A DNA stretch of 64,000 bases from Candidatus Curtissbacteria bacterium (GCA_024654445.1 JANLHP010000017.1:33009-97008); one strand, 5' to 3'; counted from the stretch's first letter, positions 421 through 28,030 are shown. A program made the numbers and translations. The notes: generated by a model from the sequence alone, not told the origin.

Positions 421-1140
421 TTACTTTAATTTGTCTAAATTTTCGTAAGCCTTTTTAAACTTGGCTTCATCAAACTTCAACGCATAGAAGTTGTGGACTG
501 TGCCTTCGGCTGTTTTTGCATTGATCACTCCCTCTATGCTGAAGAGACAATCTGGAAAGTCTTTTTTATTACCAGTAATCAAAATTGATTTCCCGCCAGA
601 AAACATTAAGCGGCCAGTTAAATGAAGATCAACAAAGCTCGCGTTTAAGGCAACGTTATTTTGAGCATATATTTTGGAAATTAAAGGGGCGTTCTCTTGA
701 ATTTTCATGAAGATTGATTGATGATTAATGGCTGGCAAAAAGTAAGGTTTCGACAAAAAATCTTGCTTTAATCTCATTTGCTCAGGAAGAAAAACGCTTC
801 TTAAAAACTCAAATTCTGTGGTTGCGTCTATTAACAACCAAGATTGTTTCAGTACGTCATATAGTTGCAGGAAAACTTCTTCGTCGTTAAAAAGCTTACC
901 CAGAAAGTCACAGTCAAGAAAATATATTGGCTGCTTAATAAGTCTTGTAAACCTTCGCTAAAGAAGATCTTGCTTTCGAGGTTCTGGGGTTGGTTCATTC
1001 TCTTTAACGATTTTTCTATTCTTTCTTATAAGATCTAGGGGTTCTTCGAGAACACTTTGTTCGTCGTAAACCTCTTTTGTAGATGTTGTAGGATAATTAT
1101 TTTCGATATGGGGTTTAGGATTTTTAGGAAAATTTGTCAT
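421..1140 (-). pseudogene. Hypothetical protein split by one in-frame TAG (958-960); ORFs 958..1140 and 421..837 are in the same frame with about 40 open codons between TAG and the TTG used by the ORF track
   Basis: Manual translation: ...RKQDLL-TAG-RRFTRLIKQPIYFLDCDFLGKLFNDEEVFLQLYDVLKQSWLLIDATTEF...; no ATG/GTG between TAG and codon 837; function unrecognised. Confidence 0.35.
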
Positions 1141-1184: not shown

Positions 1185-1673
1185 TTATTCACTTCGGCGG
1201 AATTTTCTGGATACTTTTTTAGCCCCCCAATATGCTCCTCCTAACATAGCAGCGAGTATACTTAGGCCAACAACAAAATCCCCCGCAGTTACTTCTGTCT
1301 TCGGACTGGAAGGAGATGGACTTGGTGTTATTACTGAAGATTCGCCTTTCACTTCGGGAGACGGGCTTGGTGTAGGAGTCGGGGTTGGCGTTGGAACTTG
1401 AGTTACACTTGGACTAGGCGTGGCTTTAGGTGGAGCAACAACAGGAGTCGTGTTGGGTGTAATAGTATAGTTTGAAGGTGGTGGCGGTAGACTGCCTCCA
1501 TGACTGTGGTATTCTCCGTAATCCAATCCCCAGTCTTCACAATTTGTTCTGCAGGTGTGCCCTCCCGAAGAATCGGTGCGGCCAGGGTGGGCATAGACAG
1601 GTGAACTGCTTATTAACAAAAGTAGTAGGGCAAGAACGACTCGTTTCGAATTTGTTGCTATCTGCTTTGTCAT
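1185..1673 (-). CDS. Secreted surface protein: signal peptide, small Cys/His-rich domain (HPGRTDSSGGH..YGEYHSHGG, YHYH-like), Thr/Pro-rich linker (PTPTPTPTPSPSP), C-terminal TM helix plus basic tail
   Basis: N-terminal hydrophobic leader LALLLLLISSSPVYA; low-complexity PT linker; C-terminal GLSILAAMLGGAYWGAKKVSRKFRRSE anchor; start overlaps next gene by 4 nt. Confidence 0.5.
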   Translation of the reverse strand: MTKQIATNSKRVVLALLLLLISSSPVYAHPGRTDSSGGHTCRTNCEDWGLDYGEYHSHGGSLPPPPSNYTITPNTTPVVAPPKATPSPSVTQVPTPTPTPTPSPSPEVKGESSVITPSPSPSSPKTEVTAGDFVVGLSILAAMLGGAYWGAKKVSRKFRRSE

Positions 1674-1936
1674 GGCAATGTTTCACAAGCAGCACCGTCA
1701 CTATCTCTATCTAAATTGTGATAGTCTCCACTCGATCCTCCTTCGTTTTCAAAGAAATCTTGTGCCTCACTCTGATAGGTGAAGTCGGAACAATCATAAT
1801 CACCAGTCTCTTCAAATGACCTTTCCGTCGTCGGATCGTCGTCTCTGTCAAAAGAATCTGCGCCATTCAAATTTTGGGGGTTACTGCAAGCGGAAAGGAT
1901 TAATGCAATAGTAAAAGCTACAATTATTTGTTTCAA
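1670..1936 (-). CDS. Lipoprotein with Excalibur (extracellular Ca-binding) domain
   Basis: Lipobox LSAC after signal peptide; acidic region; C-terminal motif DYDCSDF...DRDSDGAACE matches the Excalibur DxDxDGxxCE signature. Confidence 0.6.
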   Translation of the reverse strand: MKQIIVAFTIALILSACSNPQNLNGADSFDRDDDPTTERSFEETGDYDCSDFTYQSEAQDFFENEGGSSGDYHNLDRDSDGAACETLP

Positions 1937-2055
1937 TAGTTGGCAGCGGCGTTAGTATAGACTTTTTAGGGAAAAAGTCAAAATTTAACTGTAATTGGTA
2001 ATGGCAGTCACAAAATAATGTCATTTTTAAACGGATTAGTTAAACTGAAGTAGCT

Positions 2056-3504
2056 GTGAAACTCAAAAAGAATTTTGTTTTTCTGTGTGTGGTTTTAACG
2101 CTAGGGCTTTTTATGCGCCTTTCCCGGATTCGAGATTTTTATATTTTCGAAGCCGACCAGGAAATAAATTCTTTCATCGTCAAGGATATTTTTATTGATC
2201 ACCATATAAGGCTCATTGGGCAAATGAGCAGCATCGAAGGGATATTTCTTGGTCCACTACTTAATTATTTTCTTTCTCCTTTCTATGCAATTTTTGGTAT
2301 GGACCCAATTGGAGGAGTGGTTGCTGTTACTCTAATTTCCCTTGCAACAATTGCAAGCATATATTTTGTGTTTTCTGAATTTTTTGACACCGTAACTGCG
2401 AGGGTCGCTACTTTTCTGTATTCTGTTTCTCTTCCAATTGTGTTTATAGACAGATGGGTTGTCCCATCTCAAGGAGTTTTTCTTTGGTCTATTTGGTTTA
2501 TTTTTGCTTTACTTTCAATTCTTCGAGGCAATTTTAAAGCATTAATTTTGATTGGGCTTTTAGCTGGAGTTGCCTGGAATATTCACCCCACACTTGTGCC
2601 ATCATTGCTTCTAGTTCCTGTTGCTGTTTTCCTTTCTAGGAAAAAGCCACATCTTCGAGAAGTAATAATTTCGACTGCCATATTTTTAATTTCTTCACTA
2701 CCACTCTTGGCATTCGAAGCACGACATGGTTTTACTATGTTAAAAGCATTGGGGAAACTTTTTACTTCTTCTGATCCAGGGCTTCCTTTGGCACTGAAGT
2801 TAAACTTAGTCGTTTCGGGTTTTTCTTCCGTTGCAAGCAGAATCTTTTTCGAAGCCCATTTCCCGACTTTGGTAAATTTTGCTTCTCTGGTCTTGGTTGT
2901 CTGGTTTGTATACGCCAGAAAATTAATGGCCAAAAATCAATTTTCGATTATAGTAGGTTGGTTTTTATTAACTGTTGCTGCTCAGCTTTTTTCTAAGCGT
3001 GCAATCAGCGAATATTACTTTAATAATTTAATTATTCTTTCTCTTCTTCTTTTTAGCCTGACTCTTTCTTATTTACATAAAAAATCAAATAATCTATTGG
3101 TCCCAATACTACTTTCCTTGGTTTTAGTTTTTAACGTTTATTCACTTTTTTCTCGCGAAGAGAATAAATTTAATTACCTCTATAAAAAGCAGGTTGTGGA
3201 GTTTATTAAATCGGATTCGATGGCTCGTGGTTACCCGTGTATTGGCATAGATTACATCGCGGATTTTGGGAGAGCTGTTGGATTTCGTTACATTTTTTGG
3301 CAAAAGGGCCTTGTTGCCATTAAGCCGGATAGCGGTGCGCCTGTATACAAAATATTTATTCCCAGAGATGAATTGCCAGATGACGTGACCCCCCAATTTG
3401 GTAAATTAGGAGTAATAAGACCGGAAAGTGTAACTTTTAATAACACATCTGTTTGTACTGATCCCATAAATAATCTAGATTCTTTATGGGGGCTTACACT
3501 GTAG
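2056..3504 (+). CDS. GT-C fold membrane glycosyltransferase, family 39/83-like (PMT/ArnT-like)
   Basis: 482 aa, >10 predicted TM helices, GTG start, TAG stop followed 10 codons later by TAA; architecture typical of GT39 proteins. Confidence 0.5.
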   Translation: MKLKKNFVFLCVVLTLGLFMRLSRIRDFYIFEADQEINSFIVKDIFIDHHIRLIGQMSSIEGIFLGPLLNYFLSPFYAIFGMDPIGGVVAVTLISLATIASIYFVFSEFFDTVTARVATFLYSVSLPIVFIDRWVVPSQGVFLWSIWFIFALLSILRGNFKALILIGLLAGVAWNIHPTLVPSLLLVPVAVFLSRKKPHLREVIISTAIFLISSLPLLAFEARHGFTMLKALGKLFTSSDPGLPLALKLNLVVSGFSSVASRIFFEAHFPTLVNFASLVLVVWFVYARKLMAKNQFSIIVGWFLLTVAAQLFSKRAISEYYFNNLIILSLLLFSLTLSYLHKKSNNLLVPILLSLVLVFNVYSLFSREENKFNYLYKKQVVEFIKSDSMARGYPCIGIDYIADFGRAVGFRYIFWQKGLVAIKPDSGAPVYKIFIPRDELPDDVTPQFGKLGVIRPESVTFNNTSVCTDPINNLDSLWGLTL

Positions 3505-3524
3505 TTGTTTAAAATTAGATTGTT

Positions 3525-5000
3525 ATGGAATTTCTAAAAACTTACACCCCAGTGCTTATGGTACTTGTTCTCTTGAGCTTTTTAAGATTTTGTAGAGTTT
3601 TGGATGTCCCAATATTCCTGGATGAAGCAACTTATTTAAGTTTTGCAGATTCGATAAGAAATAATCCCCACAATTTGTTTGTATCTTTTCCTGCCGCTGT
3701 TCTCCCAGTTTTACCTTGGTTTCTGGCATTATCTTATTTTATTTTCGGAAATGCCTTCAACATTTTTAATGTTGCGCGCATTCTCTTAACCACCACTGAT
3801 ATTATTTCCGCATTTTTTGTTTTTCTTATAGGAAGGGAGTTGGTAGACAAAAGATTCGGATTTTTATCTTTAATACTCTACATGCTGATACCTCTGAATT
3901 TTTTCCATGGGAGATTAATTATGCTTGAGCCTTTAATGGAAATGCTATTTTTAATTGGTTTATATTTCTTAATTAAAATTTACAAGAAAATTTATGATAA
4001 AAAATACAGCATTAAACTAATTCTTACTTCCGCACTATTTTTAAGCTTATCGTTTCTAACCAAACCCCTTGCTCTGGTTTCTTTCGGCTCTCTATTGTTT
4101 TTACCTCCGTTTTTTATCCTCAAAAGAAAAGTGAGCGTCCTAATGGCTATGATAAAAATGATTCCAGCCTTTTTTGTTTTTCTTTTTTTTACGCTTTTAA
4201 TTTTGCCATTTGCGATCGTTATATTCCCTGGGTTTGAGAATTATCATGCTATTGGAGGAAATAATGATGTTGTTTTTAATTTCAAACAAAATTTATGGAG
4301 GTCTTATTGGTGGATTAAAGCGTATTTTCCGATTCCAATTCTTTTTGCTATATTTTTTTCATCCATTTTGGGTCTTTTTAAGAAAGACGTCTTGGTGGTT
4401 TGGTTTTCGTTATGGGCACTTTCTGTAATTCTTATAGACTCTTTAGTTGGGACAAAATTTTTCCCAAGACACTTATTTCCAGTAGCGGCCCCTGCTTCTT
4501 TTCTTCTTGCTTATCTAGTGTATGAAATAATGGCTCTGAGAAGATGGATGGGTTTTTTAGCATTAGGTTTTGTGTTGATCCCGCTTCTGCAAAAAGACTT
4601 GTTAATTTTGTCGGATGCTAAAAATTCGGGGCTGGCTTTAGAGGATAAGCAGCAGTTTTACGAAGATTGGACTTCCGGTGTAGGACTTGCGGAGATTGGT
4701 TCTTTTTTGAACTCGGTTTCGAGAAGGGAAAAAATTACTCTTTTTGTCGAAAACGATACTCTTTTAACATGGGCTTTACCTAATATTTATCTTGAAGAGA
4801 ATGTCATTGTTTACCCCTTACCGAATCATTTTCCGTCTAGCTTAAATAATTTTCTTGAAAATAATTCTAATACCAATATTAATTTCATCCTCTTAAACAA
4901 AACGGCGGATGCGCCTGAAGACTGGCCCGTTTTTTTGATATTATCACAAGATAAGGGGCCACACCGGAAGATAAATCTATACAAGTATCACCAAAAATGA
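3525..5000 (+). CDS. GT-C fold membrane glycosyltransferase, family 39/ArnT-like
   Basis: 491 aa polytopic; N-terminal VPIFLDEATYLSFADSI motif region typical of ArnT/PMT-like enzymes; stop overlaps next gene start. Confidence 0.55.
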   Translation: MEFLKTYTPVLMVLVLLSFLRFCRVLDVPIFLDEATYLSFADSIRNNPHNLFVSFPAAVLPVLPWFLALSYFIFGNAFNIFNVARILLTTTDIISAFFVFLIGRELVDKRFGFLSLILYMLIPLNFFHGRLIMLEPLMEMLFLIGLYFLIKIYKKIYDKKYSIKLILTSALFLSLSFLTKPLALVSFGSLLFLPPFFILKRKVSVLMAMIKMIPAFFVFLFFTLLILPFAIVIFPGFENYHAIGGNNDVVFNFKQNLWRSYWWIKAYFPIPILFAIFFSSILGLFKKDVLVVWFSLWALSVILIDSLVGTKFFPRHLFPVAAPASFLLAYLVYEIMALRRWMGFLALGFVLIPLLQKDLLILSDAKNSGLALEDKQQFYEDWTSGVGLAEIGSFLNSVSRREKITLFVENDTLLTWALPNIYLEENVIVYPLPNHFPSSLNNFLENNSNTNINFILLNKTADAPEDWPVFLILSQDKGPHRKINLYKYHQK

Positions 5001-5632
5001 CTAAGTCTGATCTTTACGAAATTTGGAGTAGGGTTCCTGTTGATTATTACCAAAAAGGTGTTAGAAGGAACCCTTATCAAAGAATTTGGCACGAGCGTAA
5101 GATTAGGAAGGCTAAAAGTATAATTAGGGACCTTAAATTTAAAAAGGTTCTGGATGTTGGTTGCGCAAGTGGTTTTATGCTTTCCCAGATAGCTCGTGAG
5201 TTTCCTAATGCAAAGTATTTTGGAATTGACGCGTATGACAAAGCTATTGAGTTTGCAAATAAAAAATATAGCCATATAAACTTTAAAGTTGGTGTTGCCG
5301 AAAAACTTCCTTATAAAGATGAGTCTTTTGACTTGATAATTTGCTACGAAACGATGGAACACGTGACACATCCCAAAGTGGCACTCCTTGAAATGAGGCG
5401 CGTTCTTAAAAAGGATGGGGCTTTAATTTTGGCCATGGATTCTGGGAGTTTACTTTTTAGAGCAGTTTGGTTTGTGTGGGAAAATACAAAAGGAAGAGTT
5501 TGGCAAGACGCTCATCTTCATCCGTTTCATCATGAGGAACTGGAGGCACTAATAAAACGCACCAAGTGGAAAGTTCGCAAAAAGTTTTTTACTCATTTTG
5601 GAATGGAAGTGGTATTTGTTCTGCAGAAATGA
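4997..5632 (+). CDS. Class I SAM-dependent methyltransferase
   Basis: Motif I VLDVGCASGFM, acidic motif II FDLIICYE; 4-nt overlap with upstream GT39 gene (operon). Confidence 0.75.
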   Translation: MTKSDLYEIWSRVPVDYYQKGVRRNPYQRIWHERKIRKAKSIIRDLKFKKVLDVGCASGFMLSQIAREFPNAKYFGIDAYDKAIEFANKKYSHINFKVGVAEKLPYKDESFDLIICYETMEHVTHPKVALLEMRRVLKKDGALILAMDSGSLLFRAVWFVWENTKGRVWQDAHLHPFHHEELEALIKRTKWKVRKKFFTHFGMEVVFVLQK

Positions 5633-5639
5633 CGATTTC

Positions 5640-6203
5640 TTAGCCGCTTGTACATGAACCCCAAAGCCCTTTTTTAAGATTTTGGGCTTCTTTTTGGGCA
5701 GCTCTTAATTTTTCCTGGTATTTAACGTCGGGCGGATATGAAGACGCGTAGGCAAATCCTTCTCTGACCATATATTCGTTGACGAAAACATCGTCAACGT
5801 ACACATACCTTAAAAGTCGTTCGTATTTGTCTGTTTCGGATACGTCTTTTTCAAGCCTAACAGTTTTTCCTTCGACGAGCTCTTTATTTTTGCTTGACGC
5901 TTCTTTTCCATAACATTCAATACCTCTTTTTGGGTGGACAGTTTCTGGTGTGTCCATGCCGATATAACGGAGTTTTTGTCCTCCTTCTATTTCAATTGTA
6001 TCGCCGTCAATAACTTTAGTTACAGTAACTGTTGCTGCATCGTGCACTTGCGGCAAAGGAGATTCCTGCGTTGACTGGCTCAATACTTCTTCGGGTTTCT
6101 GAGAGTTGAGGTTTAAATCTGATTTTGTGAATGCGTCAGCTAGAGTAATTATTGCAACTGCGATGATTGCTAGTGCGAGTGAGGATTTTTTGCGAATGGA
6201 CAC
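5640..6203 (-). CDS. Thermonuclease (staphylococcal nuclease/SNase-like), membrane-anchored/secreted
   Basis: N-terminal TM anchor; SNase motifs VIDGDTIEI, RYIGMDTPE, RLLRYVYVDD; TAA stop. Confidence 0.8.
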   Translation of the reverse strand: MSIRKKSSLALAIIAVAIITLADAFTKSDLNLNSQKPEEVLSQSTQESPLPQVHDAATVTVTKVIDGDTIEIEGGQKLRYIGMDTPETVHPKRGIECYGKEASSKNKELVEGKTVRLEKDVSETDKYERLLRYVYVDDVFVNEYMVREGFAYASSYPPDVKYQEKLRAAQKEAQNLKKGLWGSCTSG

Positions 6204-6264
6204 TTTTGTGATTTTATCATGCTTCTCCTTTGTAATGCCTCGTTTTTTGTTTTAAGATAGAGTT

Positions 6265-6879
6265 ATGCCTAGACGCGATCTGCTGTACGCTGCTTCTGTT
6301 TCAATTCTCACGACTGTATTCTTATTTCCAACACTGATTAATACCGGTTCTCTGGACAAGTTGCCCTTGTCTCCGATTTTGATACTCGCTGCTTATCCGC
6401 TTTTAGCAACATTTGGGACTTTTGTTGCGTACTTTTTGGGTAAACGCCTCGCTATTCTGTGGCAATTTTCAAAGTTTGCATTGGTTGGAGTTTGCAACAC
6501 AGCAATTGATTTCGGAATACTTAATTTACTTATACTCGTCACTAATATTACGAGCGGCGTGAGAATCATTCCGCTTAATATAACTTCTTACTCGATTGCG
6601 CTTTTAAACAGCTATTTTTGGAACAAAAGGTGGGTTTTTAGTGCTAGTAAGGGTAGCTTTCTCGCATTTGTAGCCGTAACTTTAGTCGGGCTGGGTATCA
6701 ACACGGGGATTGTTTTTGCTTTGACTACGTTTGCTGATCCTATGTTTGGGCTAGATGAAACTTTGTGGGCGAATTTAGCTAAGGTTTTTGCAACAGTTAT
6801 TTCTCTTGTATGGAATTTTATGGGGTACCGTATAATCGTTTTTGGGTCTTCAAAAAAGCAGGCAGCAGTTTCTTCTTAA
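6265..6879 (+). CDS. GtrA family membrane protein (polysaccharide/lipid-linked sugar translocation) with N-terminal TM extension
   Basis: FALVGVCNTAIDFGILNLL, YSIALLNSYFWNKRWVF, VWNFMGYRIIVF - typical GtrA 4-TM core. Confidence 0.7.
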   Translation: MPRRDLLYAASVSILTTVFLFPTLINTGSLDKLPLSPILILAAYPLLATFGTFVAYFLGKRLAILWQFSKFALVGVCNTAIDFGILNLLILVTNITSGVRIIPLNITSYSIALLNSYFWNKRWVFSASKGSFLAFVAVTLVGLGINTGIVFALTTFADPMFGLDETLWANLAKVFATVISLVWNFMGYRIIVFGSSKKQAAVSS

Positions 6880-8087
6880 ACTACCTTTTTATTTCTCAAG
6901 AGTTTGTAGGAATTAAGTTTCTCGCTAACTAAAGCACCAGATCCTATAAGAACTACAAATAGGGTAACAAGCCAGCCAATTACAGGTATCGTTGTAAGAA
7001 TTCCGTAAATTAACAGACCTGCAATAAGAGCTAAATAGTTATTTTCTTTTCCTTGTGCAAATCTAAGAATTATTCTCCCAACCGCGATCGCGACGAATAA
7101 TTTTGCGAGGTAGAGGACAAATATAAAGTCGACAAGTAAGGCTAGAGCAATTGGGATGCCTACGATTGTAATTGTCAAAACAACCACAGCTAAAGGTGTC
7201 ACGACTAGCGTCAAGAGTCCAACGCCAAGATTTTTCAGAGGTCTTTCGACTACGCTGTCCACAGTCCTTTCCGTAAAGTTCGGCAGGAATTTAATGAACA
7301 GGAGGCCGATTATAAGAGCTGCCAAAAAGCTAATTGCTTTGAAGATCAAGAAGGCGGCGCCTAGAGCTTTTTCTGCATCTTGCTGACTTTGCCTTTGAGG
7401 TACATTTTTAACGGTAGAGCCAGTGACTTGTGCTCCTTGTTGGATTTGCGCATCTTTTTCGCTCCAGTAATTTACATCGCCCTTAACTTGAGCTTTTGAT
7501 GTTAAGGTTAACTGTCCTACGCCTGCAGTAATGTTGCTGCCAACCGTATTTCCGATTGTTGCGTCGCCAGACGCTAAGGTTATTCCTTTGCCAACTGGGG
7601 CAAAAAGACTAAAGCTTCCTGAAGCATTAACCACGCTACCTCCGATGTTTGCTGAATCGGTAAAATTAACTGCTCCTGCAGTGGTTGTTACGTTTCCCCC
7701 AATGTCACCTGAAATTATTACTTCCCCGCCAGCCGCTCGGACGTCATTTTTAACATTACCCATGATGTTAACGGAGCCTCCTGCAACCAGAAGGTCGCCG
7801 TTTACTGTGCCTTCAACGATAACGTTTCCACCAGCGGCGTATACGTCCCCATTAACGGTGCCTGCAATGGTAACTTTTTCTCCTGTTGCAAAATAATCAC
7901 CTTCTATCGTTTCTCCTTGAGGTAAAAGCGCAACTTCTTGATGTACCATGTTTGGCGCGGCAAGAGCCGGAGTAACGAGCGTAAACAATGCGATTACTGT
8001 TAAAAATATGGCTGCTATTTTGTTTCTTGTCATCTTTGTCGTCTCTTTCTCGTTCAGAATAGTCCTTTGATTTTTACTTGTCAACAC
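6876..8087 (-). CDS. Bactofilin-like beta-helix repeat protein with signal peptide and C-terminal multi-TM domain
   Basis: Repeats TVNGDVYAAGGNVIVEGTVNGDLLVAGGSVNIMGNVKNDVRAAGGEVIISGDIGGNV (GxVxGDxxxxGGxV periodicity); C-terminal 6 TM helices; overlaps gtrA stop. Confidence 0.5.
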   Translation of the reverse strand: MLTSKNQRTILNEKETTKMTRNKIAAIFLTVIALFTLVTPALAAPNMVHQEVALLPQGETIEGDYFATGEKVTIAGTVNGDVYAAGGNVIVEGTVNGDLLVAGGSVNIMGNVKNDVRAAGGEVIISGDIGGNVTTTAGAVNFTDSANIGGSVVNASGSFSLFAPVGKGITLASGDATIGNTVGSNITAGVGQLTLTSKAQVKGDVNYWSEKDAQIQQGAQVTGSTVKNVPQRQSQQDAEKALGAAFLIFKAISFLAALIIGLLFIKFLPNFTERTVDSVVERPLKNLGVGLLTLVVTPLAVVVLTITIVGIPIALALLVDFIFVLYLAKLFVAIAVGRIILRFAQGKENNYLALIAGLLIYGILTTIPVIGWLVTLFVVLIGSGALVSEKLNSYKLLRNKKVV

Positions 8088-8631
8088 TATTATTTAGATA
8101 GGCTGCGACTTTTTTCAAAGCCTTTGAGCGGTGCGAAATTTTGTTTTTCAATTCCTGCGGCATTTCGGAATAAGTTTGTTTGTAACCATTTGGGATAAAT
8201 ATCCTGTCGAAACCGAATCCTCCCACGCCTCTGTCTTTTTTGGTGATCGTACCGCTCACTTGGCTTTTGAAGATCTTGAGGTTCTTGCCATCGTAAATCG
8301 CGATAGCCGCTGTCACAGTTGCTTCGGGTTTTTTACCGGTTGTGAGTTTAGCAACTCCTTCGGTTCCTAAAGTTTCAAGAAAAAATTTAATAAAAGGTCC
8401 AGGAAGACCTCTTAATTCTTTTATGTCAACGCTTACATCTTCTACAAGTACGGGTTTTTGGATTTTTTCAAATGCGGACTTCGCTTTTGCCGTAATTACC
8501 TTGTCAATATTCATTGACTGGATTTCGGGAATGTTGATTTTTGAAACTTTGTGATTCGTTCCCAAAATCGCGTTTATTTCGGCAATTTTGTTTCTATTGC
8601 TGGTAACAACTACCAAGTCAGAGAGATTCAT
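8074..8631 (-). CDS. rdgB: Non-canonical purine NTP pyrophosphatase (RdgB/HAM1 family, dITP/XTPase)
   Basis: VVVTSNRNKIAE (TGNxxKxxE), FGFDRIFIP, SHRSKAL motifs. Confidence 0.8.
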   Translation of the reverse strand: MNLSDLVVVTSNRNKIAEINAILGTNHKVSKINIPEIQSMNIDKVITAKAKSAFEKIQKPVLVEDVSVDIKELRGLPGPFIKFFLETLGTEGVAKLTTGKKPEATVTAAIAIYDGKNLKIFKSQVSGTITKKDRGVGGFGFDRIFIPNGYKQTYSEMPQELKNKISHRSKALKKVAAYLNNSVDK

Positions 8632-9127
8632 AATTTAGAAACACCTCCACAAGCACAAAACAAGGAGTGTCTTGCTCTTCTAATGCACGCTCTGAGTGTC
8701 CTTGAACACTTAGACTCTGGCAATTATTTTGAAAATCAAGGATTTCGGTGACTCTGGACGGTAGCCTAGAATGCATTAACCTAATTTCAAAGAAAGTTTA
8801 CAAAAACGGGGACCAATTTTCAAGAAGCCAAAAGGAACTAAATTACCTAAAGCCAAAACTCAATTTTATCTCCCGCAGGAAGCAGAACCAAACCTCGGAT
8901 GGGCATCGCTAGTCCAGTAGTAGGGCAACCCCGGCCGACCGTACCACAAGCGCAGAAACGGAGCGCCGCCAGACTCAACTTGTGTGCCAGGTAGATCAAC
9001 ATAATGTTCTTTTAGTATATCGGGGTTGGAAATATAAAGGGCAATTCCATCTAAAATTGTTGCTCCTCTTTCATCGTCTTCGAAATTGAACGCAGATTAT
9101 ATAGCTACTATGGGTTACTTGTCAAGC

Positions 9128-10648
9128 TCATTCGTATTCTATTGTTGCTGGTGGTTTTTGGGTGATGTCGTAAACAACGCGATTGACCCCTCGAACTTCG
9201 TTGACGATTCGGCTGGAGATTTTTTCCAGAACCTCATGTGGAATTTTGGACCAATCGGCGGTCATAAAGTCTGTGGTGTCTACAGATCTAAGGGATACGA
9301 TATAGGAATAAGTGCGGCTATCACCCATTACGCCTACAGACTTGACAGGTAGAAGGGCTGCCAGTGATTGTCCTACCTTATTATATATGTCATGGAATTT
9401 AAGCTCTGAAATGAATATTTCATCGACTTCTCGCAGTATCGAAAGTCTCTCTTCTGTCACCTCACCTAGGACTCTAATCGCGAGGCCTGGTCCTGGAAAT
9501 GGATGGCGGTTTGTAAAATCGCGGCTAATGCCAAGCAGATTGCCTATTTTTCTTACTTCGTCTTTATAGAGGTCGCGTAATGGTTCGATGAGCGTGAGCT
9601 TTAATCCTGAAGGCAGCGTAACGTTGTGATGGCTTTTGATTTTGTCCGCGTGTTTAGATGTCTGAGCAGATTCAATTCGGTCAGGGTAAATTGTTCCCTG
9701 ACCTAAAAACTTAACATTGCCGATTTTCTTGGCTTCTTCTTCTAATATTTTAAAGTAGAGCTTGGCGATAACTTTCCTTTTTTCTTCTGGGTCACTTACG
9801 CCTTTTAACCCTTTGATGAACCTGCTACTTACGTCTGTTATTTTGAAATTCTTAAAGCCTACGGTTTTAATAACGTTTTTAAGGTCGGAAACGTCATAAT
9901 TCCTGAGCAAGCCGGTATTTATAAAAACCATATGAAGATTTTTGGGTACTGCTTCTTTTATGAGTATCGCCGCGACAAGAGAGTCTACTCCACCTGAGAT
10001 TGCCATCAGAACTTTTTCGTCGCCGATTTGGTTTTTGAGATCGGATACGATTTGTTCTTTTACTTTTTTGATTGTCCAATCACGATTGGCACCAGAAACA
10101 CCAAAAAGAAAATTGCTTAGGATTTCCTTACCTTTTGTTGTGTGAGAAACTTCTGTGTGGAATTGAATTCCAAAGAAATTATGTTTGAGATTTTGTATTG
10201 CAGCAAATTTGGCGCTTTGAGTGGATCCTATTGCTGTGAATCCTTGAGGCAGTTTGCTCACCTGGTCTCCATGAGAGAACCAAACAGTTTGTGGGCTTTT
10301 TAGGTTTTTAAACAGTGGAGATTTTGAAATTTTTAACTCGACCTTACCAAATTGTTTTTTGGTGTGCGGAACTACTTTACCCCTCAGTTGATATGCCATT
10401 AGTTGCTGGCCATAACATATACCTAAAATCGGCAACTTGAGTTTGTAAATTTTAGGATCGATTTTTGGCGCTCCTTTTTCGTAACAAGAGTAAGGGCTAC
10501 CGGAAAGTATAATTGCTTCGGGATTTATTTTTTTTATTTCGGTAGGAGATATTTCCGGTGAAACGAGTTCACTTTTAACATCTAGGTCTCTTATTCTTCT
10601 TGCAATAAGGTGGGCAAATTGCCCACCAAAGTTAACAACAATTACCAT
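9128..10648 (-). CDS. guaA: GMP synthase (glutamine-hydrolysing)
   Basis: GATase ICYGQQLM Cys, ATP-PPase P-loop ISGGVDSLV, conserved C-terminal dimerisation domain ...PPATIEYE; TGA stop. Confidence 0.95.
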   Translation of the reverse strand: MVIVVNFGGQFAHLIARRIRDLDVKSELVSPEISPTEIKKINPEAIILSGSPYSCYEKGAPKIDPKIYKLKLPILGICYGQQLMAYQLRGKVVPHTKKQFGKVELKISKSPLFKNLKSPQTVWFSHGDQVSKLPQGFTAIGSTQSAKFAAIQNLKHNFFGIQFHTEVSHTTKGKEILSNFLFGVSGANRDWTIKKVKEQIVSDLKNQIGDEKVLMAISGGVDSLVAAILIKEAVPKNLHMVFINTGLLRNYDVSDLKNVIKTVGFKNFKITDVSSRFIKGLKGVSDPEEKRKVIAKLYFKILEEEAKKIGNVKFLGQGTIYPDRIESAQTSKHADKIKSHHNVTLPSGLKLTLIEPLRDLYKDEVRKIGNLLGISRDFTNRHPFPGPGLAIRVLGEVTEERLSILREVDEIFISELKFHDIYNKVGQSLAALLPVKSVGVMGDSRTYSYIVSLRSVDTTDFMTADWSKIPHEVLEKISSRIVNEVRGVNRVVYDITQKPPATIEYE

Positions 10649-10653
10649 AGTCT

Positions 10654-11625: not shown

Positions 11626-12140
11626 TTTGCTAGCTGTAAATATTTTTTATATCCTGAGTTTTCTAACTTTTTAGCTTTCTCTCCTACTGTCTTTTTCATT
11701 TTGGCTTTGTATCGAGTTAGCTTACTACTTAAATTTTTATTGTTTGTTGCCAGAATTTCGATCGCAAGGAGGGCCGCATTTGTCGAGCCATTGATGGCAA
11801 CTGTTGCAACAGGAATGCCTGGGGGCATTTGAGCTATTGATAAAAAAGAGTCGATGCCATCCATTGTTTTCGTTTTGATAGGGACGCCGATTACTGGAAG
11901 AGTAGTAATGGAAGCTGTCATTCCCGGTAGGTGGGCCGCGCCGCCCGCGCCGGCTATTATTACTTTAATGCCCTTTGATTTTGCGCTTCTTGCGAACTTG
12001 TACATTCTGTCCGGGGTTCTGTGTGCGGAAACCACGGTCAGCTCATAGCCTACGCCAAAATCATCGAGCACAGTAGCTGACTCTTTCATTATTTCCAGAT
12101 CCGAATCGCTGCCCATGATTATCGCTATTTCTTTTTTCAT
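11622..12140 (-). CDS. purE: N5-carboxyaminoimidazole ribonucleotide mutase
   Basis: [30 protein letters not shown] motifs. Confidence 0.9.
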
Positions 12141-14634: not shown

Positions 14635-14646
14635 ATTTTTGATCTC

Positions 14647-14736: not shown

Positions 14737-14748
14737 AGGATGACAGTT

Positions 14749-17137: not shown

Positions 17138-17145
17138 TAAATTTT

Positions 17146-17208: not shown

Positions 17209-17215
17209 GGTAATA

Positions 17216-25114: not shown

Positions 25115-26696
25115 CTAAATGAATTTGTGGGTACTTTTTAAAATAGCTTTCATTAATACTAAAGAATGTTTTTTCATGAGGACCAATTGTAACGTATTTT
25201 ATCTTGTATTTTGAAATTAATTTTTCCGCTTCCTCTCCCCCAAGATATATTGTTCTGATGTCTTGTGCCCTTTCTTGGTAAGGCAATCCGTGGGTCCAGG
25301 CCCATCCGTGAAAGCCCAATAGTGTGGTGCGGCCACTTAACGCTGGAATTGGGTGATTGTGGACGGGAGCGGTTACAAAGATTGCATCTTTGTCTGTCAG
25401 ATTTTTAGTTAAAGATGCAATTTCTAAATCATTGTTCGAAAAAATTTGGTAACTGCTTACGGGAGTAAAGGTGCGGAAGATATCTATTGACCCCGCCAGT
25501 ATTGTGAATATAACGATAATAGCTCCAAGTATTTTTCTGTTAACATTTTCTGAAAAGAAATTTTCGTGCAAGAAGAGTGCGACGACGATGCATGATGCGA
25601 AAAACCAATAGAGCATTATCTTGCTGTTATCAAATTCCCAGGGCTGGAATATAAAAATGTTAGATAAGAAAAATATAAATAGAAATGGTAGATAAAGCAA
25701 AAATAGGTTTTTGTACTTTTTATAAAGCCATATAAGAGACCATATTAGAAGTGGCGCAAAAAGTCCTAAATTTTTAAGCCAAAACCAGATTATATTCTCT
25801 GCGCTCGTCCAACCGGGGTCTATTCTTATAAACTTTAGGGCATTACTGCTTTGGGAAATTGACGAGAAGAGTACAAATGACAGAATTGCTGATACAACTG
25901 CGAAGGTTGCCCAGCTTTGAATAAGTTTAGATTTCTTCTTCGCTGTCAAAATGGAGGCCGGCGCAAAGAAAAGCGAAAGGAGAAAAATTACGAAAAGACT
26001 GTGGGCCTGAACTATTGGTAAAGCTCCTGTTATTAAACCCGCTTGAGCAAAGGGTATGAGTTTAACTTTTTTATGTCCTTTAAAAAGCAACAGTAAAACA
26101 ACTAGAGTCATTGGAAATGCAATTAAGAATCCTCTTTGTGGAAGAAAGTAGGCTAGCGTAGTGTTTATAAACCAGTATCCACTTTCTTTAATATCGGTGT
26201 ATTCACCCGGTAAATTGCTTAAAAATTGGAGCGGTAACTGGGCAGATTTTAAGAAATCCGAAAAGAAATAGTAAAAACCGAATCCGCCGTTAACCAAGAA
26301 AAGAAGCAACGTTAAAAATACGGTACCTTCACTTTTGGTGAATTTATTAATAAAAAGTCGTGAGGTGAAGATTAAAACGATACCTGCTGTGAAAGTTGTT
26401 ATAAAAAGTGCAAAGTCTATACTTGATATTTGTGCGATTTTGCTCGTTATAAGATCTGCAAAAATGGGATAGTTAGGTTTCGTGCTTGCAAAAATAGGGC
26501 TTGATATTGTCAGGCTATTCGTCTCTAGGAATCTATTAATAAGGCCAAGATGAAAAACTAAATCGCCGTAAAGGTTAACCTGACCTACATACCAACCATC
26601 GCTTCTTATTTGGAGCATCTGTCTTGCCAGGTGAAAAAACAGAAATCCAAAGAAAATAAATGTGAATGCTGGGAAAATCTGAATCGATTTTCGCAT
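25053..26696 (-). CDS. Large polytopic membrane protein, putative GT-C-type glycosyltransferase with C-terminal periplasmic domain
   Basis: 547 aa, >12 TM helices, soluble C-terminal domain; family not firmly assigned; start overlaps miaA end. Confidence 0.4.
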   Translation of the reverse strand: MRKSIQIFPAFTFIFFGFLFFHLARQMLQIRSDGWYVGQVNLYGDLVFHLGLINRFLETNSLTISSPIFASTKPNYPIFADLITSKIAQISSIDFALFITTFTAGIVLIFTSRLFINKFTKSEGTVFLTLLLFLVNGGFGFYYFFSDFLKSAQLPLQFLSNLPGEYTDIKESGYWFINTTLAYFLPQRGFLIAFPMTLVVLLLLFKGHKKVKLIPFAQAGLITGALPIVQAHSLFVIFLLSLFFAPASILTAKKKSKLIQSWATFAVVSAILSFVLFSSISQSSNALKFIRIDPGWTSAENIIWFWLKNLGLFAPLLIWSLIWLYKKYKNLFLLYLPFLFIFFLSNIFIFQPWEFDNSKIMLYWFFASCIVVALFLHENFFSENVNRKILGAIIVIFTILAGSIDIFRTFTPVSSYQIFSNNDLEIASLTKNLTDKDAIFVTAPVHNHPIPALSGRTTLLGFHGWAWTHGLPYQERAQDIRTIYLGGEEAEKLISKYKIKYVTIGPHEKTFFSINESYFKKYPQIHLDENWQIYDVGTIWSDGNRQN

Positions 26697-28030
26697 ACCA
26701 CATATTATATACTCGAAAGATGAACAAAACTTTTCTCTACGTCTTGATTTTCTTAACCTTAGTTTCCTTTGTAATTCGTATCTACCGATTTACATCTCCA
26801 GGCAAATATTACTTCGACGAGGTGTACCACGTTGTAACAGCAAAGGCATATTCTCAAAATAACCCGGCTGCTTATGATCCGTTTGCACCACCACCCGAAC
26901 AAGGCACTGCTTACGATTGGCTTCATCCTCCTTTGGCTAAATTAATACAAGCCGGGTCTATTAAGGTTTTGGGTGATAATCCTGTGGGCTGGAGACTTCC
27001 AAGTGTAATTTTTGGGACAGCAATTATCCCGCTAACTTTTATCTTGGCCACCCTGCTTTTTGGGCCCCTGGTCGGACTTTTTGCAGCTGCTGTGATTTCG
27101 TTTGAAAATTTAACTTTTGTGATGTCGAGAATTACGATGAACGATGTTTTTGTGGTGGTCTTTATCTTGTTGTCTTTAATATTCGCTGCATTCTACGCAA
27201 AGGCAAGTAAGTCGATGCATATAATTTTAAGCAGCATATTTTTGGGACTGGCAATTTCTTCAAAGTGGTCGGGTGTTTACGCCATTCCTTTAGTTTTTGG
27301 ATATTTGTCTTACATTTCTTTCAAGAAAAGGCGGTGGGACACAAAACTTCTTTTAACGCTACTTTTGCCCCCTCTTATATATCTTTTAAGTTATGGACAG
27401 TTCTGGTTGCAAGGGCATTCGGTCCGCCAGTTTATCGATCTTCATAAGCAAATCTTGTGGTATCAGAACCGCCACGATTTAGTTCATTCTTATGGTACTA
27501 CCCCAATTTACTGCGTACCGGAAGGTCTTGGTGGTCAGAAGAGTTTATGCCCTTGGGTTTTTGATGCCCGCGGGGTTTATTTCTCTTACCATGAACAAGG
27601 CGGAAAAGCCGAATACATCTATGCGCTCGGAAATCCCTTAATTTTTTGGGCCGGGTTCGTTGCTTCTTTCTTTTTAATCGGAAGGTTGGTTGAAAAGAGG
27701 GATAAGCAAAGCTTTTCTGTGAATAAGCAAAGCTTTGCTTCGAAAAAAAAGCTCGCCCTTGTACTTGCTGCTTACTTTATTTTTTGGGTGCCCTGGATAT
27801 TTAGCCCAAGAATAATGTTTTTGTATCACTACCTTCCAGCAATTCCATTTCTTTCAATCGCTCTTGGGATAGTTCTTTCTGATATTTATAAAACACGTCG
27901 AAGTTATATTGCCGTATTTGCGTTAGTTGCATTTGCTTTGGTTTTCTTCTATCTATACCCAATTTCCTCAGGATATCCAATCGAGATCAAATCGATTGGT
28001 AGGTATATGTGGTTTGATAGCTGGCGATAG
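26666..28030 (+). CDS. Glycosyltransferase family 39 (PMT-like, phospholipid-carrier-dependent)
   Basis: N-terminal YFDEVYHVVTAKAY...DPF...HPPLAKL loop motif typical of GT39; 454 aa polytopic; TAG stop. Confidence 0.6.
   Translation: MLGKSESIFAYHILYTRKMNKTFLYVLIFLTLVSFVIRIYRFTSPGKYYFDEVYHVVTAKAYSQNNPAAYDPFAPPPEQGTAYDWLHPPLAKLIQAGSIKVLGDNPVGWRLPSVIFGTAIIPLTFILATLLFGPLVGLFAAAVISFENLTFVMSRITMNDVFVVVFILLSLIFAAFYAKASKSMHIILSSIFLGLAISSKWSGVYAIPLVFGYLSYISFKKRRWDTKLLLTLLLPPLIYLLSYGQFWLQGHSVRQFIDLHKQILWYQNRHDLVHSYGTTPIYCVPEGLGGQKSLCPWVFDARGVYFSYHEQGGKAEYIYALGNPLIFWAGFVASFFLIGRLVEKRDKQSFSVNKQSFASKKKLALVLAAYFIFWVPWIFSPRIMFLYHYLPAIPFLSIALGIVLSDIYKTRRSYIAVFALVAFALVFFYLYPISSGYPIEIKSIGRYMWFDSWR

What the first reader, a model, noticed from the sequence alone, without database searches (positions are those of the whole stretch)
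1185..8087. Cell-surface/glycosylation locus: Excalibur lipoprotein, YHYH-like PT-linker surface protein, two GT39 transferases, methyltransferase, thermonuclease, GtrA and bactofilin-like membrane protein
Eight adjacent genes encode envelope-exposed or envelope-modifying functions. A Ca-binding Excalibur lipoprotein is translationally coupled to a secreted protein with a C-terminal TM/basic anchor and a (PT)n linker. Two tandem GT-C glycosyltransferases are coupled to a SAM methyltransferase. A GtrA-type flippase component is also present, which could supply methylated glycans for O-linked decoration of PT-rich proteins. A membrane-anchored SNase-like nuclease is relevant to an episymbiont scavenging host or environmental DNA. 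Two more GT-C genes lie at 25-28 kb. The 403-aa bactofilin-like beta-helix repeat protein fused to a 6-TM domain is an unusual architecture. It could be a cytoskeletal anchor or an adhesin.
Basis: partly seen in the sequence, partly recalled or inferred. Interest (0 to 1): 0.5.

Follow-up and report, generated by a model that had tools for sequence, protein, structure and literature searches.

The report
Ordinary envelope gene cluster with halofilin
This stretch of a Curtissbacteria (CPR) genome holds eight real but mostly independent cell-envelope genes, and the "odd" beta-helix/membrane fusion belongs to the already described HalB halofilin family, so the region is well annotated rather than new.

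Summary
All eight ORFs exist at the stated coordinates. Seven domain calls hold: YHYH, Excalibur with a lipobox, two PMT_2-type GT-C enzymes, a class I SAM methyltransferase, an SNase with an intact active site, and GtrA.

Corrections:
- The two GT-C genes are not demonstrable GT39. The only true PMT (PMT plus PMT_4TMC) lies at 26666-28030.
- The "403-aa bactofilin/6-TM" gene is probably 385 aa. It has a Sec signal peptide, about ten 17-residue beta-helix windings outside the cell, and five TM helices plus one short amphipathic helix.
- It carries DUF8173. Its family profile aligns end to end with haloarchaeal bactofilin-TM proteins (E 1e-36). It has the architecture of halofilin HalB (PNAS 2024). 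The family has about 20,000 cluster representatives.

The "locus" is five transcription units, and synteny holds only partly, within Curtissbacteria. The halofilin gene has no conserved neighbour across 80 genomes. The Excalibur-YHYH pairing is not conserved. The GT-C/GT-C/methyltransferase trio does recur, inside larger sugar-biosynthesis clusters with GT2 enzymes. [quoted passage not shown]

Verdict: new members of known kinds, with low to moderate interest.

The parts
1185..1673 (-). g1: 162-aa type I membrane protein. It has a signal peptide (..SPVYA|HPG), a YHYH_alt His-rich domain, a Pro/Thr/Ser stalk (PTPTPTPTPSPSP) and a C-terminal TM helix with a basic tail.
   Evidence: NF033223 YHYH_alt, 39.6 bits, cut-off 30. 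No Pfam hit. Sequence read directly.
1670..1936 (-). g2: 88-aa acidic lipoprotein with an Excalibur Ca-binding motif (DRDSDGAACE). Its stop codon overlaps the g1 start (ATGA).
   Evidence: PF05901, 23.3 bits (cut-off 22), and LPAM_1, 21.1 bits. Nineteen of 21 homologues carry PF05901. Overlap seen. Promoter-like site at 1981-1954, 10 of 12 matches.
2056..3504 (+). g3: 482-aa GT-C-type membrane glycosyltransferase (PMT_2) with about 9 TM helices and the acidic loop-1 motif EADQE.
   Evidence: PF13231, 33.8 bits. Remote relation to the g4 family, hhalign E 7e-4. A g3-like GT-C is coupled to a methyltransferase in L085.
3525..5000 (+). g4: 491-aa GT-C-fold glycosyltransferase (PMT_2) with an invariant D33-E34 in loop 1. 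It starts 20 nt after g3, and its stop overlaps the g5 start.
4997..5632 (+). g5: 211-aa cytoplasmic class I SAM-dependent methyltransferase, translationally coupled to g4.
   Evidence: Methyltransf_31, 84.5 bits, and Methyltransf_11, 83.5 bits. No hydrophobic segment. A 40%-identical homologue in L086 is coupled to an NDP-sugar epimerase next to a g4 homologue.
5640..6203 (-). g6: 187-aa secreted or N-terminally anchored staphylococcal-type (thermo)nuclease with intact Ca2+ and catalytic residues.
   Evidence: PF00565, 89.6 bits. NucI-like, 125 bits, below the equivalog cut-off. The alignment to S. aureus nuclease conserves IDGDT, R..DTPE and DKY.R, the equivalents of D21, R35, D40, T41, E43 and R87.
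6265..6879 (+). g7: 204-aa GtrA-family membrane protein, a candidate polyprenyl-phosphate-sugar flippase, with a conserved extension of about 65 aa and 2 TM helices at the N-terminus. It is convergent with g8, with a 4-nt overlap.
   Evidence: PF04138, 69.9 bits, residues 70-193. Full-length orthologues lie next to the halofilin gene in L003, L004 and L010.
6876..8033 (-). g8: 385-aa HalB-type halofilin (DUF8173). It has a Sec signal peptide (1-25, ALA|A), about ten 17-residue beta-helix windings (44-213) predicted to be outside the cell, and five TM helices plus one short cytoplasmic amphipathic helix (217-381). The longest ORF reaches 8087, but that start lies inside the Ham1 gene.
   Evidence: 100% identical to a 385-aa NCBI Curtissbacteria protein; homologues carry PF26514. 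AF2 pLDDT 93.6. Positive-inside analysis. A1 profile against haloarchaeal bactofilin-TM proteins: E 1.3e-36 and 3.2e-23. Relatives pass PF04519. Start-codon context.
8074..8631 (-). Context: Ham1/ITPase gene, the last gene of the purine operon. It lies directly upstream of g8 in all 7 Curtissbacteria loci examined.
   Evidence: PF01725, 146 bits. Synteny.
26666..28030 (+). Context, outside the finding: the only bona fide GT39-type protein O-mannosyltransferase in the window (motif FDEVYH). It is the likelier enzyme for O-glycosylating Pro/Thr stalks.
   Evidence: PF02366, 77.6 bits; PMT_4TMC PF16192, 76.9 bits.

Best explanation
The region is a mosaic of five separate transcription units. All encode cell-envelope proteins of a Candidatus Curtissbacteria (Microgenomates/CPR) genome. 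It is not one integrated system.

1. g2->g1: a small acidic Excalibur lipoprotein is co-translated with a type I membrane protein. That protein holds a His-rich YHYH domain at the tip of a Pro/Thr/Ser stalk.

2. g3->g4->g5, with g7 nearby: two divergent PMT_2-type GT-C glycosyltransferases, a cytoplasmic class I methyltransferase and a GtrA-type protein. [quoted passage not shown]
   - Inferred steps: a GT2 enzyme encoded elsewhere loads a sugar onto undecaprenyl phosphate. The sugar may be methylated by g5 at the nucleotide- or lipid-linked stage.
   - GtrA then flips the lipid-linked sugar, and g3 and g4 transfer it to wall-polymer or protein acceptors outside the membrane.

3. g6: a secreted or anchored Ca2+-dependent SNase that degrades extracellular nucleic acid.

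4. g8: a bacterial HalB-type halofilin. It is exported by Sec. A rigid bactofilin-type beta-helix about 5 nm long sits on the outer face of the membrane on a five-helix membrane domain. By analogy with Haloferax HalB, it acts as an envelope scaffold that can polymerise and mechanically couples the membrane to the wall or S-layer.

Shown: the domains, folds, topology logic, gene overlaps and synteny.
Inferred: the substrates, the flipping step, polymerisation, and any cooperation between the units.
For: Gene arrangement:
- Strand alternation gives at least 5 transcription units.
- ATGA overlaps join g2/g1 and g4/g5.

GT-C enzymes:
- g4 homologues sit in clusters with GT2 enzymes, NDP-sugar epimerases, DegT, acetyltransferases, further PMT_2 genes and class I methyltransferases.
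- A g3-like GT-C overlaps a methyltransferase in L085. A g5 homologue is coupled to an epimerase in L086.
- The review PMC8035078 shows that PMT_2 GT-C enzymes work with a GT-A and a GtrA flippase to decorate wall polymers. It also shows that one GtrA can serve several GT-A/GT-C pairs.

g8:
- AF2 pLDDT is 93.6. The signal peptide is conserved across the family. The loops follow the positive-inside rule.
- The family profile matches haloarchaeal SP+bactofilin+TM proteins end to end (E 1.3e-36 and 3.2e-23).
- Those proteins and the Curtissbacteria relative P0024 (49% identical to g8) pass Pfam Bactofilin (49.9 and 39.5 bits).
- The best PDB sequence hit of the profile is the Thermus bactofilin (E 0.0016).
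- The HalB description in PMC11459167 matches feature for feature: Sec/SPI signal, an extracellular bactofilin domain of 5-10 windings, 5 TM helices plus a short inner-leaflet helix, mostly bacterial members, and candidate phyla included.

SNase: the active-site residues are conserved.
Against: - No GT2 polyprenyl-phosphate glycosyltransferase is in the window. The glycosylation route is therefore incomplete here, and the link between GtrA and g3/g4 rests on proximity only.
- GtrA lies next to the halofilin gene, rather than next to GT-C genes, in L010.
- H. volcanii HalB (D4GX31) itself could not be fetched, so membership rests on haloarchaeal homologues assumed to be in the HalB cluster.
- g8 lacks the long flexible linker and the disordered C-tail described for H. 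volcanii HalB.
- HalB's own molecular function is still a model, so the scaffold role is an analogy.
Confidence: 0.65

Rival explanations
1. One reading: one dedicated cell-surface glycosylation locus. In it, two GT39 protein O-mannosyltransferases, the methyltransferase and GtrA supply methylated O-glycans to the PT-rich stalk of the neighbouring g1 protein.
For: - All the parts lie within 7 kb.
- g1 has a Pro/Thr/Ser stalk of the kind that actinobacterial PMTs mannosylate (established knowledge; sequence).
- GT-C, methyltransferase and GtrA genes are present.
- NCBI names g4 'glycosyltransferase family 39 protein'.
Against: - g3 and g4 fail the PMT (PF02366) threshold and lack PMT_4TMC. A true PMT exists at 26666-28030.
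- The g2/g1 pair is divergent from g3-g5. It is absent from the other six Curtissbacteria loci and from all g4-homologue contexts.
- Excalibur homologues have unrelated neighbours.
- In studied Gram-positive bacteria, PMT_2 GT-C enzymes modify wall polymers, not proteins.
Confidence: 0.12
2. g8 is a monomeric surface adhesin or receptor. Its beta-helix binds a host cell or a polymer. It is not a polymer-forming scaffold.
For: - The beta-helix is extracellular.
- CPR bacteria are often attached to hosts (general knowledge).
Against: - The family is conserved at 35-55% identity, with invariant Gly/Asp turn residues, in very different free-living lineages such as Nitrospirota, Binatia, Clostridia and haloarchaea. 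That pattern is unlike fast-evolving adhesins.
- The sequence-level affinity is to bactofilin.
- The beta-helix is short, about 10 windings, with almost no stalk.
- The HalB beta-helix domain polymerises in vitro.
Confidence: 0.12
3. g8 is a classical cytoplasmic bactofilin cytoskeleton element, tethered to the membrane by a C-terminal 6-TM anchor.
For: - JGI and NCBI names are 'CcmA (bactofilin family)', 'FapA family' and 'polymer-forming cytoskeletal protein'.
- Relatives hit PF04519.
Against: - A conserved N-terminal signal peptide with an A-x-A site precedes the beta-helix in all 58 aligned members.
- All K/R-rich loops fall on the side opposite the beta-helix.
- HaloTag experiments placed the HalB bactofilin domain outside the cell.
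- g8 itself fails PF04519.
Confidence: 0.04
4. The adjacency has no functional meaning. In a small, gene-dense genome, unrelated envelope genes happen to lie side by side.
For: - There are five transcription units.
- The halofilin gene has no conserved neighbour across 80 loci.
- The run of 7 of 8 membrane or secreted genes has P of about 1e-4 to 1e-3 per position. That is near one expected per genome at the upper background.
Against: - DUF8173-GtrA-SNase(-GT-C) order recurs in 3-4 Curtissbacteria genomes.
- The GT-C/GT-C/methyltransferase trio recurs in unrelated contigs.
- So at least two sub-modules are more than chance.
Confidence: 0.07

Closest known systems
Halofilin B (HalB, HVO_1237 / UniProt D4GX31) of Haloferax volcanii; Pfam DUF8173 (PF26514)
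   Same: - A Sec signal peptide.
- An extracellular bactofilin-type right-handed beta-helix. The paper reports 5-10 windings across the family; g8 has about 10.
- Five TM helices plus one short helix at the inner leaflet.
- The C-terminus is in the cytoplasm.
- The family is mainly bacterial and includes candidate phyla.
- The g8 family profile aligns over both domains with haloarchaeal members (E 1e-36).
   Different: - g8 has twice the windings of H. volcanii HalB.
- The linker between beta-helix and membrane is only about 6 residues, not a long flexible one.
- The C-terminus is a short basic tail, not a disordered acidic one.
- g8 itself is too divergent to hit PF04519.
- The host is a bacterium with a (presumed) peptidoglycan envelope.
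- No experimental data exist for any bacterial member.
Canonical bactofilins (BacA, CcmA, TtBac; PF04519)
   Same: [quoted passage not shown]
- Weak but top-ranking sequence similarity (6RIA, E 0.0016).
   Different: - Canonical bactofilins are cytoplasmic and have about 6 windings.
- They attach to the membrane through a short N-terminal peptide and have no TM domain or signal peptide.
- g8 fails the Pfam model.
Multi-component (three-component) transmembrane glycosylation systems: GtrABC, CsbB-GtcA-YfhO, GtlA-GtcA-GtlB, CsdAB/CD/EF-CflA, ArnC-ArnEF-ArnT
   Same: - A GtrA-family small membrane protein.
- PMT_2-type GT-C enzymes with an acidic loop-1 motif and 9-10 TM helices.
- Relatives of the GT-C genes sit beside GT2 enzymes and NDP-sugar-modifying enzymes.
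   Different: - No GT2/GT-A partner is in this window.
- Two tandem, very divergent GT-C genes are present, with a translationally coupled class I methyltransferase.
- GtrA is a separate, convergently oriented gene with a 2-TM N-terminal extension.
- The sugar and the acceptor are unknown.
GT39 protein O-mannosyltransferases (yeast Pmt1/2/4; actinobacterial Pmt)
   Same: - A loop-1 Asp-Glu motif.
- A polyprenyl-phosphate-sugar donor is expected.
   Different: - g3 and g4 do not reach the PF02366 threshold and lack the PMT_4TMC domain.
- The genuine family member in this window is the 26666-28030 gene.
Staphylococcal nuclease / thermonuclease (Nuc, NucI; PF00565)
   Same: - A full SNase domain with conserved Ca2+ ligands and catalytic Arg/Glu residues.
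- An N-terminal signal sequence or anchor.
   Different: - The score is below the NCBIfam NucI equivalog cut-off (125 against 250 bits).
- In two related genomes the gene is longer and overlaps a GT-C gene.

Membership tests
HalB-type halofilin (DUF8173) | N-terminal Sec/SPI signal peptide | tested here: met
   The sequence MTRNKIAAIFLTVIALFTLVTPALA|AP has basic n-, hydrophobic h- and A-x-A c-regions. It is conserved in all 58 aligned members. In the AF2 model, helix 3-18 is followed by a low-confidence segment. No dedicated signal-peptide predictor was available.
HalB-type halofilin (DUF8173) | Extracytoplasmic bactofilin-type beta-helix of 5-10 windings | tested here: met
   - AF2 beta-helix spans 34-210 at pLDDT about 98, with ten 17-residue repeats.
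- The family profile's best PDB hit is TtBac (E 0.0016).
- Relatives P0024, P0118 and the Haloarcula homologue pass PF04519 (39.5, 31.5 and 49.9 bits).
- g8 itself does not hit PF04519.
- The outside location is inferred from the signal peptide and the positive-inside rule.
HalB-type halofilin (DUF8173) | C-terminal membrane domain of five TM helices plus a short helix at the inner leaflet | tested here: met
   The AF2 helices are 217-249, 251-263 (short and charged), 265-287, 292-325, 332-348 and 352-381. K/R residues cluster at 250-264, 320-331 and the C-terminus. No solved structure matches this domain.
HalB-type halofilin (DUF8173) | Sequence homology to archaeal HalB over both domains | tested here: inconclusive
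   hhalign of A1 against Haloarcula pelagica WP_284011324.1 gives probability 99.9% and E 1.3e-36 over 322 columns. Against Halobaculum WP_276239617.1 it gives E 3.2e-23. These proteins have the HalB architecture, but H. volcanii D4GX31 itself could not be retrieved, and the afdb50 library was unavailable.
HalB-type halofilin (DUF8173) | Long unstructured linker between the beta-helix and the TM domain; disordered cytoplasmic tail | tested here: not met
   The linker is about 6 residues (211-216) and the C-tail is a short basic stretch. The paper states that the tail varies or is absent in homologues, so this is a variable feature rather than a defining one.
HalB-type halofilin (DUF8173) | Self-assembly into polymers or foci; role in envelope and shape integrity | not testable with these tools
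   Known only for H. volcanii HalB.
Canonical bactofilin (PF04519) | Matches the Pfam Bactofilin model above the gathering score | tested here: not met
   No PF04519 hit for g8, even at E<=10.
Canonical bactofilin (PF04519) | Cytoplasmic, soluble or peripherally membrane-bound, about 6 windings | tested here: not met
   g8 has a signal peptide, a 5-TM domain and about 10 windings.
GT39 protein O-mannosyltransferase | PMT domain (PF02366) above threshold | tested here: not met
   g3 has no hit. g4 scores 19.0 bits against a cut-off of 22.7. By contrast, 26666-28030 scores 77.6 bits.
GT39 protein O-mannosyltransferase | C-terminal PMT_4TMC domain (PF16192) | tested here: not met
   Absent from g3 and g4. 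Present in 26666-28030 at 76.9 bits.
GT39 protein O-mannosyltransferase | GT-C fold with an Asp-Glu motif in the first extracytoplasmic loop | tested here: met
   [not shown]
Multi-component transmembrane glycosylation system (GT-A + GtrA + GT-C) | Multi-spanning GT-C glycosyltransferase with an acidic extracellular-loop motif | tested here: met
   g3 and g4.
Multi-component transmembrane glycosylation system (GT-A + GtrA + GT-C) | GtrA-type small membrane protein (putative flippase) | tested here: met
   g7, PF04138 at 69.9 bits. Flipping activity was not tested.
Multi-component transmembrane glycosylation system (GT-A + GtrA + GT-C) | Membrane-associated GT-A/GT2 enzyme that makes the C55-P-sugar | tested here: not met
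   No GT2 was found among the window ORFs scanned. GT2 genes are adjacent to g4 homologues in L084-L086. The partner may lie elsewhere on the 268-kb contig.
SNase / thermonuclease | SNase domain with Ca2+ ligands and catalytic Arg/Glu residues | tested here: met
   PF00565 at 89.6 bits. Equivalents of D21, R35, D40, T41, E43 and R87 are conserved.
Excalibur domain lipoprotein | Excalibur DxDxDGxxCE motif above the Pfam threshold, plus a lipobox | tested here: met
   23.3 bits against a cut-off of 22, which is marginal. The motif DRDSDGAACE is present. LPAM_1 and the lipobox LSAC are present. Homologues carry PF05901.
YHYH_alt domain protein | NF033223 above the cut-off | tested here: met
   39.6 bits against a cut-off of 30, residues 26-58.

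The most novel reading that the evidence does not exclude
In Curtissbacteria and other Microgenomates, the HalB-type protein polymerises on the outer face of the membrane into an extracellular bactofilin lattice. This lattice would position or template envelope assembly in ultra-small cells, including the GtrA/GT-C glycosylation machinery that lies next to it in several Curtissbacteria. It would be a true 'exo-cytoskeleton' in bacteria. The GT-C/GT-C/methyltransferase module would build a methylated wall glycan peculiar to CPR.
Probability: 0.1. Interest if true: 0.6.

Novelty: new member of a known kind. Interest (0 to 1): 0.25.

Why it matters
The main value is corrective.
- It shows which gene is the real protein O-mannosyltransferase.
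- It shows that 'glycosyltransferase family 39' labels on PMT_2 proteins should not be read as protein O-mannosylation.
- It shows that the apparently exotic beta-helix/TM fusion belongs to the halofilin HalB family described in 2024.

A modest positive point also emerges. HalB-type proteins are abundant: about 20,000 cluster representatives at 50% identity. They are strongly conserved in Microgenomates, yet no bacterial member has been studied. CPR cells, with their minimal envelopes, could be a useful place to ask what an extracellular bactofilin does.

The recurring GT-C/GT-C/methyltransferase trio points to an uncharacterised, probably methylated, envelope glycan in these bacteria.

Tried and rejected
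- An exact look-up of the window's own halofilin protein in the assembly index found nothing.
- A metagenome scan with the single g4 protein found no relatives.
- The AlphaFold-database fold search, needed to hit D4GX31 directly, was not available. The paper's supplements are not held. No paper mentions DUF8173.
- Guilt by association for g8 failed. ORFs within +/-5 kb of the gene in 80 genome loci were clustered, and the most frequent neighbour family occurs in only 11 loci.
- phmmer of g3, g4 and the 26.7-kb PMT against PDB sequences gave nothing useful.
- I tested whether 25053-26696 is a GT-C and could not confirm it. Pfam gave nothing at E<=10, and hhalign to the g4 family gave probability 0.6%.
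- I tested whether Excalibur-YHYH is a conserved cassette and rejected it.
- Promoter and terminator scans were at or below shuffle expectation, so they are used only as hints.

Full report
**Source and layout**

The window comes from a Candidatus Curtissbacteria (Microgenomates, CPR) genome. Three of its proteins (g2, g4 and g8) are each 100% identical to NCBI MAG proteins on a 268-kb contig. The rest of the window holds a purine operon, recA, the ribosomal-protein operon, EF-Tu and rpoBC.

Their strands alternate (-,-,+,+,+,-,+,-), so the region contains at least five transcription units:
- g2->g1
- g3->g4->g5
- g6
- g7
- g8

The two claimed translational couplings are real ATGA overlaps, for g2/g1 and for g4/g5. 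g3 and g4 are separated by 20 nt.

**Domain checks**

| Gene | Family | Score (cut-off) |
|---|---|---|
| g1 | NCBIfam YHYH_alt | 39.6 bits (30) |
| g2 | Excalibur | 23.3 bits (22) |
| g3 | PMT_2 | 33.8 bits |
| g4 | PMT_2 | 27.1 bits (26.1) |
| g5 | Methyltransf_11/31 | about 84 bits |
| g6 | SNase | 89.6 bits |
| g7 | GtrA | 69.9 bits, residues 70-193 |

- **g1** has a signal peptide, a PTPTPTPTPSPSP-type stalk and a C-terminal TM helix with a basic tail.
- **g2** passes Excalibur only narrowly. It has a clear DRDSDGAACE motif, an LSAC lipobox and an LPAM_1 hit. Nineteen of its 21 homologues carry PF05901.
- **g5** is a class I SAM methyltransferase with no hydrophobic segment.
- **g6** keeps the Ca2+ ligands and catalytic residues of S. 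aureus nuclease. It has an N-terminal signal sequence or anchor.
- **g7** has a conserved 2-TM N-terminal extension.

**The 'GT39' call**

- g3 has no PMT (PF02366) hit. g4 scores 19.0 bits against a cut-off of 22.7. Neither has PMT_4TMC.
- The g4 family has an invariant loop-1 D33-E34.
- g3, g4 and the 26.7-kb gene are only remotely related to one another (hhalign E 7e-4 and 1e-4).
- The gene at 26666-28030 is the genuine PMT: PF02366 at 77.6 bits, PMT_4TMC at 76.9 bits, and the motif FDEVYH.
- The other '25-28 kb GT-C', 25053-26696, has no family assignment at all.
- NCBI does call g4 'glycosyltransferase family 39 protein'. In Gram-positive bacteria, though, PMT_2 GT-C enzymes such as GtlB, GttB, YkcB, CsdD/F, GtsC and GacL decorate wall polymers. 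They do so within multi-component transmembrane glycosylation systems, together with a GT-A and a GtrA-type flippase (PMC8035078).

**Is the GT-C/GT-C/methyltransferase operon a real module?**

g4 has only nine detectable relatives. In three independent contigs these relatives sit inside sugar-biosynthesis clusters. The clusters contain GT2 enzymes, NDP-sugar epimerases/dehydratases, a DegT aminotransferase, a hexapeptide acyltransferase, DUF2142, DUF2079, further PMT_2 genes and class I methyltransferases.
- L085 has a g3-like GT-C (29% identity) whose end overlaps a methyltransferase gene. This is the same arrangement as g4/g5.
- L084 has a methyltransferase overlapping a g3-like GT-C.
- L086 has a full-length g5 homologue (40% identity) overlapping an NDP-sugar epimerase next to the g4 homologue.

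So the trio recurs, and the methyltransferase is tied to sugar metabolism. The window itself has no GT2, so the pathway is incomplete here.

My inference is as follows. A GT2 encoded elsewhere makes a C55-P-sugar. g5 may methylate the sugar in the cytoplasm; Haloferax AglP, which methylates a lipid-linked glycan, is a precedent from my own knowledge. g7 flips the lipid-linked sugar, and g3 and g4 transfer it outside. The acceptor is unknown. The Pro/Thr stalk of g1 is more plausibly a substrate of the true PMT at 26.7 kb.

**The beta-helix/TM fusion (g8)**

- **Start codon.** The longest ORF (403 aa) starts inside the Ham1 gene. The ATG at 8033 has a purine-rich (AG-rich) stretch immediately upstream, which I read as ribosome-binding-site-like. 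It matches the 385-aa NCBI protein and all homologues.
- **Family.** g8 has no hit in the local Pfam copy, even at E<=10. Its homologues carry PF26514 (DUF8173), and some also carry PF04519 or PF03961.
- **Structure.** With a 58-sequence alignment, AF2 gives pLDDT 93.6. The model has a signal-peptide helix, a beta-helix at 34-210 made of ten 17-residue windings, and then helices at 217-249, 251-263 (short and charged), 265-287, 292-325, 332-348 and 352-381.
- **Topology.** The signal peptide with its A-x-A site is conserved family-wide. All K/R-rich segments lie on the side opposite the beta-helix. The beta-helix is therefore predicted to be extracytoplasmic.
- **Sequence evidence is clearer.**
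  - The family profile's best PDB hit is the Thermus bactofilin (E 0.0016).
  - tblastn against plasmids finds haloarchaeal 'polymer-forming cytoskeletal proteins'.
  - The profile aligns end to end, over both beta-helix and TM domain, with the Haloarcula pelagica protein (probability 99.9%, E 1.3e-36) and the Halobaculum protein (E 3.2e-23).
  - Those proteins, a Curtissbacteria relative 49% identical to g8, and a Nitrospirota member all pass Pfam Bactofilin (49.9, 27.7, 39.5 and 31.5 bits; the 27.7 is just under the 27.9 cut-off).

**Comparison with halofilin HalB**

This is the architecture published for halofilin HalB of Haloferax volcanii (PMC11459167). HalB has:
- a Sec/SPI signal;
- five TM helices plus a short inner-leaflet helix.

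Its topology was verified with HaloTag. The isolated domain polymerises in vitro, and filaments appear after S-layer removal. Deletion deforms disk cells. The family has 2,304 UniProt members, 1,813 of them bacterial, including candidate phyla.

I could not obtain D4GX31 itself. The fold library was unavailable and the paper's supplements are not held. Direct membership is therefore inferred through haloarchaeal homologues.

g8 differs from H. volcanii HalB in having about 10 windings, almost no linker and a short basic C-tail. The family is large: 20,806 cluster representatives at E<=1e-3, and 7,600 at E<=1e-30. The architecture is real but not unusual.

**Neighbourhood conservation**

- Across 80 genome loci holding g8 homologues (Microgenomates, Nitrospirota, Dadabacteria, Binatia, Clostridia and others), none of the other seven genes is a regular neighbour.
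- De novo clustering of neighbours finds no family in more than 11 of the 80 loci.
- Within Curtissbacteria, g8 follows the purine operon and Ham1 in 7 of 7 loci.
- GtrA is the convergent neighbour in 4 of 7 loci.
- SNase follows in 4 of 7 loci.
- In L003 and L004 the SNase gene overlaps a 10-11-TM GT-C-like gene.
- Excalibur and YHYH genes are absent from those loci. Three Excalibur homologues elsewhere have unrelated neighbours.
- Seven membrane or secreted genes out of eight has P of about 1e-4 per position, given the 20% background in this window. This is not compelling genome-wide.

**Verdict**

- 'GT39' should be generic PMT_2 GT-C.
- '403 aa / 6 TM' should be 385 aa with a signal peptide and 5 TM helices plus an amphipathic helix.
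- 'unusual cytoskeletal anchor or adhesin' should be a HalB-type extracellular halofilin.

The idea of a single integrated glycosylation locus is not supported. Two sub-modules have comparative support: GT-C/GT-C/methyltransferase, and the Curtissbacteria-specific DUF8173-GtrA-SNase(-GT-C) order. Everything present is a new member of a known kind, and interest is low to moderate.

Noticed in passing
window 26666-28030 (+): This is the only bona fide GT39-type protein O-mannosyltransferase in the window (PMT 77.6 bits, PMT_4TMC 76.9 bits, motif FDEVYH). Its longest ORF overlaps the divergent ORF 25053-26696 by 31 nt, so the true start is probably the ATG at 26717.
   Followed up: partly
window 25053-26696 (-): A 547-aa protein with about 9 TM helices and no Pfam hit even at E<=10. 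It shows no profile similarity to the g4 GT-C family. It is an unassigned membrane protein placed head to head with the PMT gene.
   Followed up: partly
window 8074-18229 (-); L001, L003-L006, L010: A de novo purine gene string (GuaA, PurC, PurE, adenylosuccinate lyase and synthetase). It includes two PurP-like ATP-grasp genes (DUF1246/DUF1297, the archaeal-type FAICAR synthetase) and ends in Ham1/ITPase. In all 7 Curtissbacteria loci examined it is followed directly by the HalB-type gene. No functional reason for this linkage is apparent.
   Followed up: partly
L003 7998-10168; L004 11866-14051: In two related Curtissbacteria the SNase gene is longer (259-264 aa, with a weak ArfC hit in L003). 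It overlaps the start of a 10-11-TM GT-C-like gene (PMT_2 in L003). This suggests that a nuclease and a GT-C glycosyltransferase are co-transcribed.
   Followed up: no
window 6265-6470 (+): The GtrA-family protein carries an N-terminal extension of about 65 residues with two extra predicted TM helices. The extension is conserved in the orthologues of L003, L004 and L010. Typical GtrA proteins have 3-4 TM helices.
   Followed up: no
window 421-837 (-) and 21883-22254 (-): Two ORFs, of 138 and 123 aa, with no Pfam family at E<=0.01.
   Followed up: no
window 34085-34770 (+): tRNA-Pro(GGG) is followed by a 153-aa protein with an RskA_C anti-sigma-factor-like domain (31.4 bits).
   Followed up: no
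L084-L086 (metagenome contigs holding g4 homologues): Large CPR-type glycan clusters combine several PMT_2 GT-C genes, DUF2142, DUF2079, GT2 enzymes, DegT, an acetyltransferase and up to two class I methyltransferases. They would encode an uncharacterised modified-sugar envelope glycan pathway.
   Followed up: partly
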